A DNA stretch of 61,391 bases, filler included, from Pirum gemmata (lineage: Eukaryota), in NCBI GenBank assembly GCA_002812295.1. It is 17 parts of 17 records of this genome, joined end to end, with 100 filler letters (N's around TTAATTAATTAA, not from the genome) between each part and the next. Parts side by side here need not be neighbours in the genome. Positions count along the whole stretch, not along the records: positions 25,009 to 28,752 come from PDIN01003729.1; 16 more parts are not named here. One strand, 5' to 3'. Numbering within the stretch: position 1 is the stretch's first letter; each line of letters starts with the position of its first letter. Below are positions 26,810 to 27,239 of the stretch, one piece after another. Both the position numbers and the translations under genes were made by a program. The notes beneath the pieces are model-generated. The model ran no database searches and was not told where the DNA came from. It saw nothing but the letters and a program-made list of their open reading frames with translations.

Positions 26810-26961
26810 AGAATCAAAGTTCTTTCACTCGAAACTTTTTTTGAAAAAAAGCTGGTGGTGCAAACCACCAAAATCATAGGCCTAACTACTAAAGTCATTG
26901 TGTAAACAATGACCCTTATTTTTTTTGGTTGTTATCATATTAAATAAAATATTATTTCTAG
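26810..26961 (-). ncRNA. Putative Fanzor omegaRNA scaffold / element right end
   Basis: Directly 3' of the Fanzor stop, on the minus strand: GTCATTGT-TTAC-ACAATGAC (26913-26894, extendable by G-U pairs), TAGGCCTA, TGGTGGT-TTGC-ACCACCA (26870-26853) and AAAGTTT-CGAGTGAAA-GAACTTT (26838-26816). Boundaries approximate. Confidence 0.6.
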
Positions 26962-27239
26962 TTAAAAATATCGTAATAATATATTTCTAGCACCATTAAC
27001 ATTAAGATCAACTTGATAATTACAAGTACTATTCTTACAATTAAATGTTTTACCAGTAAACTTTGGATTAATAAATCCACACCTATCACAAGTACGACTT
27101 GTATAAGCTTCATCGCAAACTATAACTTTACACCCTTGTATTACTTGAGCTTTAGCAATCAACAATTACCGAAATCGAAGCCCATGAACATATCGATATC
27201 CCTCGTTTTGGCTTAAAGATTATATTTATTATTACTTTT
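26962..27239 (-). pseudogene. fanzor2 (tnpB-like): Fanzor2 / IS607-type TnpB RNA-guided nuclease, C-terminal remnant
   Basis: LLIAKAQVIQGCKVIVCDEAYTSRTCDRCGFINPKFTGKTFNCKNSTCNYQVDLNVNGARNILLRYF contains the RuvC-II E-x-YTS motif, a CxxC...CxxxxC zinc ribbon and RuvC-III D-x-(D>N)-VNGARNI. Upstream CSWA..RFR is broken by a 5-nt deletion and a TAA. Confidence 0.92.

What the first reader, a model, noticed from the sequence alone, without database searches (positions are those of the whole stretch)
26810..27239. Eukaryotic Fanzor2 (TnpB-like) remnant with an apparently intact omegaRNA-like 3' end
Seen: a minus-strand frame with E-A-YTS-x-T-CxxC...CxxxxC...D-x-x-VNGARNI, followed within ~150 nt by three clean stem-loops in otherwise AT-rich DNA; G-U extensions favour the coding strand. 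Known: this motif set, with the upstream (S)W-x-HY-RFR motif, marks Fanzor2/IS607-type TnpB, whose guide RNA is encoded at the element's 3' end with the spacer taken from flanking DNA. Inference: this protist carries or carried an RNA-guided nuclease family. This copy is dead (N-terminus gone, 5-nt deletion, TAA, DRD to DLN), yet the hairpins are undamaged, so it may be a non-autonomous guide donor for an intact Fanzor elsewhere. It sits ~500 bp upstream of a spliced host gene, so it is nuclear-integrated.
Basis: partly seen in the sequence, partly recalled or inferred. Interest (0 to 1): 0.88.

Follow-up and report, generated by a model that had tools for sequence, protein, structure and literature searches.

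The report
Dead Fanzor2 fragment in a palindrome
This is the broken tail of a gene for a Fanzor2-type nuclease (a family that is RNA-guided in studied members), partly duplicated back-to-back in a protist genome; the hairpins behind it are likely the decaying remains of its guide RNA rather than a working guide, so the locus is ordinary transposon debris that points to a likely still multi-copy Fanzor2 family in a host group where none seems to have been reported.

Summary
The protein call holds. The 67-aa frame hits PF07282 (E 6e-13) and NF040570. It is 78-79% identical to an intact 455-aa Fanzor2 and to a Pirum gemmata protein, and its wider relatives sit behind IS607 serine recombinases.

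The 'undamaged guide RNA' is not supported. Related elements share a short hairpin whose loop pairs with the element's last bases, a pseudoknot shown to be needed in a related IS607 TnpB. Here the best-matching site has closed into a 7-bp hairpin, no convincing partner exists, and a covariance model of the core misses it. The region folds no better than 19 of 157 GC-matched windows, and two intact stems are expected by chance in 15-38% of simulations. Diverged coding copies exist in two public runs, but no copy of the hairpin region was seen.

Verdict: neutral debris of a known kind of element. The boldest open reading is a Mu-killer-like hairpin silencer of the family (about 8%).

The parts
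26944..27209 (-). 3' coding remnant of a Fanzor2 gene (residues ~366-454 of P0001): K-T-..-G-M-C-S-W-A, RFR, RuvC-II Glu (27111-27109), C4 zinc ribbon, RuvC-III with the catalytic Asp read as Asn (27003-27001), tail LTRNNI in a shifted frame
   Evidence: catalytic positions by alignment to ApmFz2 and PMC11832414
27009..27239 (-). Right-hand (longer) arm of the decayed palindrome
   Evidence: 120 aligned bases, 8 mismatches, 4 indels against the other arm
27247..27374 (+). Second, inverted Fanzor2 fragment (GMCSWAHY*FRQFLI, 105-nt deletion, KTFNCKNRTCNYQV); other arm of the palindrome
27210..27276 (.). AT-rich centre of the palindrome with a 7-nt spacer (27240-27246); probably host low-complexity DNA at the 5' break of the element, not shown to be a left end
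   Evidence: its 14-mer also occurs at 25182; X2 record 14 spans 27136-27286 with no other letters
26891..26916 (-). 11-bp stem-loop, likely the variable 5' stem of the former omegaRNA
   Evidence: relatives have one or two such stems before the core
26853..26873 (-). Best match to the clade's pseudoknot-hairpin core; here a 7-bp hairpin with a closed 4-nt loop instead of a 3-4-bp hairpin with an open 5-6-nt loop
26833..26853 (-).
   Evidence: -3.4 kcal/mol
26774..26785 (-). Best-guess remains of the element's right end (TAA linker plus a 4-bp partial pseudoknot partner); not statistically supported. An alternative 5-bp partner lies at 26714-26710
   Evidence: end motif scores -0.4, best shuffled sites average 5.6; 12% chance for the alternative
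27399..28586 (-). Intronless 395-aa orphan ORF ending 25 nt before the palindrome; possible source of read-through across it
   Evidence: exact X2 pieces at 27385-27524 and 27541-27761
25949..26641 (-). Downstream host gene, 5' part (ATG 26307; probable intron 26066-25949)
   Evidence: by eye; X2 record 9 matches 26300-26641 exactly and ends there

Best explanation
The locus is a dead, 5'-truncated fragment of a Fanzor2 nuclease gene, partly duplicated into a back-to-back palindrome, and the hairpins behind it are likely the neutrally decaying remains of an IS607-type transposon's guide-RNA scaffold, predicted to be non-functional. Shown: the protein family, the lesions, the palindrome, diverged sister copies, and the omegaRNA architecture of relatives. 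Inferred history: (1) an IS607-like element (serine recombinase plus Fanzor2 plus 3' omegaRNA) inserted between an orphan ORF and a host gene; (2) everything upstream of about codon 365 was lost and the stump was copied in inverted orientation, probably in one repair event, since both arms share the 5' junction but carry different stops and deletions; (3) both arms and the omegaRNA then drifted, and the pseudoknot hairpin closed into a longer, more stable stem that hides its loop. In intact members of the family the omegaRNA would load Fanzor2 and direct cutting at empty donor sites (established for the family, not tested here); this copy would contribute neither protein nor a working guide.
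For: Family: PF07282 and NF040570. 79% identity to P0001 and 78% to a Pirum gemmata protein. The three form a 99%-supported clade inside Fanzor2-like sequences (quick tree, remnant fills 31% of columns). ApmFz2 is the best PDB hit of P0001. Resolvase PF00239 upstream in 4 of 4 relatives scanned; TnpA-like ORFs visible upstream in 9 of 14 loci listed. Decay: DRD is invariant in 33 of 33 homologues and read in sister copies but lost here. The arms differ at 8 of 120 bases with arm-specific stops. RNA: the core hairpin covaries in 14 relatives (93.7% of cells paired, 0 of 500 shuffles as high), and 13 of 15 have a run of at least 5 pairs between loop and downstream DNA. The window scores 2.4 bits with the model against 33 and 28 for held-out L092 and L094. 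Its best core site scores 11.8, below all 13 leave-one-out relatives (13.8-28.2). Forcing the relatives' register costs 3.5-6.2 kcal/mol. Both strong stems survive in 15-38% of simulations at 3.5-7% divergence.
Against: No DNA of an intact copy of this very family could be fetched, so the 'damage' is judged against relatives only about 35-40% identical in protein; a divergent sub-family scaffold could look like this. The model R1 also misses true relatives: 10 of 57 loci hit at E<=1, and L079, L082 and L152 are not among them. A perfect 5-bp partner for the loop exists at 26714-26710. The motif anchors were chosen by eye, and the survival simulation used idealised stems without indels. The holes in read-laying prove nothing by the tool's own note.
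Confidence: 0.75

Rival explanations
1. Guide donor: the 3' end still makes a working omegaRNA that is loaded in trans by an intact Fanzor2 encoded elsewhere, like the ghost loci of Spizellomyces Fanzor1.
For: Two strong stems are unbroken. The core motif is recognisable above shuffles. Sister coding copies exist, one contig reaching 1110 letters further upstream (X1 record 5). Ghost omegaRNAs of SpuFz1 work in trans in human cells (PMC10432273, passages). A low-depth X2 piece reaches 26893.
Against: The pseudoknot core is not cleanly formable. Ghost loci are multi-copy and strongly conserved at both ends, whereas no copy of 26810-26960 was laid at 80% likeness and a 534-letter sister contig leaves the alignment at 26992. 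The candidate spacer matches only its own place in the window (the rest of the genome is not held). With the insertion fixed and its left side deleted, the guide would have no obvious empty-site target (inference).
Confidence: 0.1
2. Hairpin silencer, working like maize Mu killer: read-through from the orphan ORF crosses the palindrome, the RNA folds into about 120 bp of duplex made of Fanzor2 sequence, and small RNAs cut from it silence the family's other copies.
For: The palindrome folds at -153.7 kcal/mol, z -18, and starts 25 nt after the ORF's stop on the same strand. X2 holds exact low-depth pieces on both sides and across the centre, and one contig jumps 27018 to 27385 over the hairpin at a 4-letter overlap without GT-AG ends, which is what a polymerase skipping a folded hairpin leaves. 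Ichthyosporeans were searched for Dicer and Argonaute, and single-RNase-III Dicer-like fragments were reported for P. gemmata (PMC6206976, passages).
Against: X2 is of unknown kind, the jump is one contig at depth 3, and it could be a DNA deletion or a PCR artefact. The arms carry 8 mismatches and 4 indels, with no sign of selection. The arms differ from sister copies at about 11-15% of letters, which limits 21-nt matches. No small-RNA data were available.
Confidence: 0.08
3. The hairpins are unrelated host sequence (chance stems, or terminator or promoter elements between two genes), and the element's true omegaRNA was lost.
For: The model does not detect the region. No alignment to relatives' 3' regions stands out credibly (best z 3.8 among 83, in AT-rich sequence beyond the expected place). 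19 of 157 matched windows fold as well.
Against: The core motif lies 125 nt after the G-A-R-N codons (relatives 41-170), ranks 7th of 117,626 sites in the window, beats 400 of 400 local shuffles, and follows a strong stem as in relatives. Homology of the coding tail runs to about 26944, 28 nt before the first stem.
Confidence: 0.07

Closest known systems
Fanzor2 in IS607-like elements: ApmFz2/ApmFNuc (mimivirus L79, PDB 9B0L), NlovFz2, ISvNY2A_1 (Bao & Jurka PMC3627910; Jiang PMC10530073; Saito PMC10432273; Yoon 10.1101/2023.08.09.552727; Schargel PMC11832414)
   Same: RuvC-II Glu six residues before the zinc ribbon; DPG in the intact relatives; serine recombinase upstream in relatives; omegaRNA behind the stop with a pseudoknot on the last bases (seen in relatives).
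   Different: This copy lacks RuvC-I, REC/WED, the recombinase and the left end, has lost the RuvC-III Asp, and is folded back into a palindrome. Its family (with P0001 and the Pirum protein) is a long-branched clade of its own, about 39% identical to the next homologues.
Ghost Spu-1 loci of Spizellomyces punctatus Fanzor1 (PMC10432273)
   Same: omegaRNA-like 3' end without a working nuclease gene.
   Different: Ghosts are 134 loci with both inverted repeats and strongly conserved omegaRNA. This is one truncated locus, with no second end, no seen copies of the RNA region and a doubtful core.
Mu killer of maize (PMC3440606, start of abstract only)
   Same: Partial inverted duplication of a transposon gene lying downstream of a flanking gene.
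   Different: The duplex here is about 120 bp, old and mismatched, against a hairpin of kilobases. No small RNA or silencing is shown.

Membership tests
Fanzor2 / IS607-type TnpB | OrfB zinc ribbon flanked by RuvC-II and RuvC-III | tested here: met
   PF07282 E 6e-13; NF040570 E 2e-8
Fanzor2 / IS607-type TnpB | C-terminally shifted RuvC-II Glu, six residues before the zinc ribbon | tested here: met
   E-AYTSRT-C; definition read in Yoon et al.
Fanzor2 / IS607-type TnpB | DPG RuvC-I motif | tested here: not met
   Deleted in this copy; present in its clade mates P0001 and P0002. The locus is filed as a remnant of a member, not as a working member.
Fanzor2 / IS607-type TnpB | Catalytic RuvC-III Asp (DRD) | tested here: not met
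   DLN here; DRD in 33 of 33 homologues and in sister copies
Fanzor2 / IS607-type TnpB | Groups with Fanzor2 and pro-Fanzor, not with Fanzor1 or canonical TnpB | tested here: met
   Tree, (no Fanzor1 row was included; one canonical-like TnpB, L071, lies far out); ApmFz2 best PDB hit of P0001 at E 1e-18, no Fanzor1 among 12 hits
Fanzor2 / IS607-type TnpB | IS607 serine recombinase (TnpA) in the element | tested here: inconclusive
   Absent at this locus; present upstream in relatives; no DNA of the host's own intact copies could be read
Fanzor2 / IS607-type TnpB | omegaRNA at the right end with a pseudoknot on the last bases | tested here: inconclusive
   Core motif recognisable but the model misses it and pairing is partial
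Fanzor2 / IS607-type TnpB | Sharp right end with variable flanks among copies; dinucleotide core | not testable with these tools
   No genome held; sister contigs not readable beyond loose ends
Fanzor2 / IS607-type TnpB | RNA-guided, TAM-dependent DNA cleavage | not testable with these tools
   needs a bench assay
Ghost omegaRNA loci | Many copies with both ends and strongly conserved omegaRNA | tested here: inconclusive
   One copy in the window. Summed depth 0-48 over 26810-26962 against 2189-3171 over coding bins in X1, but the tool filters records. No left end seen.
Ghost omegaRNA loci | Expressed small RNA that loads the nuclease in trans | not testable with these tools
   no small-RNA or raw-read run listed
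Mu-killer-like hairpin silencer | Inverted duplication of part of a transposon gene | tested here: met
Mu-killer-like hairpin silencer | [quoted passage not shown] | tested here: inconclusive
   Low-depth exact X2 pieces and one hairpin-skipping joint; kind of run unknown
Mu-killer-like hairpin silencer | siRNA production and trans-silencing of intact elements | not testable with these tools
   needs small-RNA-seq and genetics

The most novel reading that the evidence does not exclude
The palindrome is a natural 'Fanzor killer'. Read-through from the upstream orphan gene makes a long hairpin RNA of Fanzor2 sequence that is diced into small RNAs silencing a family of RNA-guided-nuclease transposons in a probable unicellular relative of animals. 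This would be host RNA interference turned against a mobile RNA-guided nuclease.
Probability: 0.08. Interest if true: 0.7.

Novelty: new member of a known kind. Interest (0 to 1): 0.25.

Why it matters
The locus itself is debris. Its use is as a pointer: a distinct Fanzor2 clade (P0001; Pirum gemmata gene models P0015 and P0002) in what is probably an ichthyosporean-type host. No ichthyosporean genus name was found in the supplements of three Fanzor surveys or in two full-text searches. P0001 has an intact D-E-D triad and is a candidate compact nuclease to test. The comparison also yields a compact, covarying omegaRNA core (linker, 3-bp hairpin with a 6-nt loop, pseudoknot on the last bases) for a broad environmental Fanzor2 clade, useful for finding right ends. 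If the hairpin-silencer reading held, it would show a host taming an RNA-guided nuclease transposon by RNA interference.

Tried and rejected
No whole genome is held, so copies could not be aligned. The window is a chain of contigs, mostly about 3 kb, joined by spacers, so only 25009-28752 is true context. BLASTn and tBLASTn of the window show no Fanzor copy beyond the two arms. Rfam: only weak miRNA-family matches on the palindrome, all far below gathering scores, and nothing on the 3' hairpins. P0001 finds no close relative in viral contigs. Sequencing runs: no RNA holder listed; 26708-26860 has no cover in X2; neither is evidence on expression. A second read-laying, meant to show splicing and single-copy depth, did not complete, so the kind of run X2 and the host intron stay open. 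Local alignment of the 3' region to 83 loci gave nothing credible. An unconstrained pseudoknot search was too noisy to use. A first register that placed the core at 26887-26871 scored -6.3 and was dropped. The 3'-end profile was not significant. The careful tree did not finish; the quick tree was used, with L012 and L146 dropped for lack of an extractable ORF. The DRD count printed covers only the 68 of 124 proteins that the pattern matched and is not relied on. The 395-aa ORF: no Pfam or NCBIfam hit, 0 hits among 1.84 billion representatives, none of 2458 candidates, an unusable model (pLDDT 35), and no answer from the Atlas. Assembly artefact was rejected for the palindrome: the arms differ by 8 substitutions and 4 indels, and a contig of a second study spans the centre exactly. 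Earlier findings: nothing for this genome, for P0001 or for the combined words.

Full report
Setting. The window is a chain of contigs, mostly about 3 kb, separated by N-flanked spacers; the finding lies in the contig 25009-28752 (about 25% GC). No genome is held. Microsatellites, telomere-like repeats and leucine-rich-repeat genes on other contigs fit an AT-rich eukaryote. The closest named relative of the peptide is a Pirum gemmata protein from EukProt, so an ichthyosporean-type host is likely; this is inference, and the organism was not identified.

The protein. The minus-strand frame 26965-27165 matches PF07282 (E 6e-13) and NF040570 (E 2e-8). Among longer proteins the best hits are P0001 (455 aa, 79%) and P0002 (Pirum, 78%). 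P0015, the neighbouring Pirum gene model, supplies the N-terminal part with the long extension also seen in other Fanzor2-like hits. P0001 has DPG, the Glu six residues before the zinc ribbon, and DRD; the first two are the signatures that Yoon et al. give for Fanzors and pro-Fanzors (10.1101/2023.08.09.552727, parts 1, 2, 4 and 5 of 7 read). Its best solved relative is ApmFz2 (9B0L, E 1e-18). In a quick tree of 60 rows the remnant, P0001 and P0002 form a 99% clade on a long branch, among environmental Fanzor2-like proteins and apart from the cyanobacterial pro-Fanzors. Four of four upstream ORFs scanned from related loci are PF00239 serine recombinases, and such ORFs are visible in 9 of 14 loci listed. 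The element is therefore of the IS607/Fanzor2 kind, although the recombinase was not seen for the host's own family.

The copy is dead. Everything before about residue 366 is gone. There is a 6-nt duplication near 27200, a 5-nt deletion after S-W-A, a TAA at 27168-27166, DRD to DLN (the second Asp is the catalytic Asp501 of ApmFz2 by the alignment and PMC11832414, parts 1-2 of 5 read), and two extra T that fake the stop at 26964 while the tail LTRNNI continues in another frame. Public runs hold diverged sister copies: 7 listed X1 contigs and 3 listed X2 contigs lie on the coding part with 7-20 other letters each. Two read the DRD letters, and one 1196-letter contig extends 1110 letters upstream (the table was cut, 260 pieces not shown). 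The family is thus multi-copy and may include whole genes.

The palindrome. The remnant is one arm of an inverted duplication centred on 27243: arms 27009-27239 and 27247-27374, 8 mismatches in 120 aligned bases and 4 indels, folding at z -18. Both arms share the same 5' junction to AT-rich DNA but carry different stops and deletions. Truncation and duplication therefore came first and inactivating changes followed separately (inference). An X2 contig spans the centre exactly, so it is not an assembly chimera.

The guide RNA. I fetched 178 related loci. Pairs with different flanks show sharp right ends by eye. In the nearer clade a constant core appears: a variable stem, a 3-nt linker, a 3-4-bp hairpin with a 5-6-nt loop, CT, a second stem, further stems, a TAA-type linker and the complement of the loop, usually followed by G. 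On 14 loci picked by eye, the six tested pairs are kept in 93.7% of cells with 22 two-sided changes (the structure was derived from these sequences, so this leans high). This is the pseudoknot that is needed for activity of ISXfa1 TnpB and forms the core of the ApmFz2 omegaRNA.

In the window the best site for this core is 26873-26856. It scores 11.8, above 400 of 400 dinucleotide shuffles but below all 13 leave-one-out relatives, and ranks 7th of 117,626 sites in the window. The loop finds 4 pairs at 26780-26777 after a TAA linker at a typical distance (88 nt; relatives 47-135), or 5 pairs at 26714-26710 (12% by chance). The terminal G is missing at both sites, and the end profile is not significant. 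A covariance model of the core gives the region 2.4 bits (E 1.5 in 351 nt; not among the 9 hits at E<=10 in the window). It finds held-out L092 and L094 at 33 and 28 bits but also misses several true relatives.

The hairpins are not remarkable in themselves. The third is poly-U/poly-A, the plus strand folds better than the minus strand against shuffles, 19 of 157 GC-matched windows fold as well, and both strong stems survive unbroken in 15-38% of simulations at 3.5-7% divergence. In X1 the summed depth is 0-48 over 26810-26962 against 2189-3171 over coding bins, and a 534-letter sister contig leaves the alignment at 26992 (filtered records make this weak). I read the region as a decayed omegaRNA with an undetermined right end. 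Against this reading, no intact own-family scaffold was available, and a divergent but working fold is not excluded.

Expression. No holder is on record as RNA. X2 is of unknown kind. It has one deep contig that matches the host gene's 5' part and stops at 26641 with an adapter-like loose end (recognised from recall), shallow exact pieces over the orphan ORF, the palindrome centre and 26893-27018, and one joint 27018 to 27385 that skips the hairpin at a 4-letter overlap without splice ends. This would fit low read-through with a polymerase jump over folded RNA, but a DNA deletion or PCR jump fits too. It is the only support for the Mu-killer-like rival (PMC3440606, start of abstract in the listing). 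Dicer-like fragments were reported for P. gemmata (PMC6206976, passages).

Comparison with print. Fanzor2 in IS607-like elements without TIRs or TSDs: Bao and Jurka (PMC3627910, passages). Guide-only ghost loci of Fanzor1 and their activity in trans: Saito et al. (PMC10432273, passages). Fanzor RNAs and TAMs: Jiang et al. (PMC10530073, passages). Searches for ichthyosporean Fanzors: 'Fanzor' with 'Ichthyosporea' gave 0 papers; 'TnpB' with 'Amoebidium' gave one meeting report, seen in the listing only; six ichthyosporean names gave no hit in the supplements of PMC10530073, PMC10432273 (one scanned file not searchable) and PMC10711439. Tables that list only accessions, or papers outside the library, could still hold them. 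Giant-virus endogenisation in the ichthyosporean Amoebidium (PMC11244446, start of abstract only) offers a plausible route of entry, untested here.

Verdict. A real Fanzor2 remnant, dead, inside a decayed palindrome, followed by a probably decayed omegaRNA. It is a new member of a known kind, possibly in a new host group. Interest 0.25; boldest open reading (hairpin silencer) about 8%.

Noticed in passing
window 27399-28586 (-): Intronless 395-aa ORF with no homologue in any search; preceded by a long A run; exact low-depth pieces in run X2.
   Followed up: partly
window 42615-44488 (-): Three tightly packed ORFs (154, 232, 241 aa) without Pfam hits. The first holds a VYNDTQNIH stretch that I recall from giant-virus proteins (recalled, no call); a viral-contig scan found no close relative. 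Could be an endogenous viral fragment.
   Followed up: partly
window 29236-30402 (-): Leucine-rich-repeat ORF (PF13516) followed by low-complexity and EEQARKK repeats, on the next contig.
   Followed up: no
window 5675-5900, 38167-38300, 47995-48586: Runs of TTAGGG-type telomere-like repeats inside or at the ends of contigs.
   Followed up: no
whole window: Sixteen spacers of 44 N + a 12-base palindrome + 44 N join separate contigs, so neighbours across them are not genomic context.
   Followed up: yes
L001, L003, L021, L074-L081, L084, L099, L100, L123, L158: A compact covarying omegaRNA core with a terminal pseudoknot across an environmental Fanzor2 clade; model R1 also finds it in L092 and L094 and weakly in bacterial L121 and L124.
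   Followed up: partly
L099, L100, L123: Short (about 2 kb) Fanzor2-clade contigs binned into bacterial MAGs; L099 and L100 group with eukaryote-type Fanzor2 and may be binning contaminants.
   Followed up: no
P0015 + P0002 (Pirum gemmata gene models evm2s4184, evm1s4184): One Fanzor2 gene split into two adjacent gene models, the second apparently shortened, so this family is likely mis-annotated as host genes.
   Followed up: no
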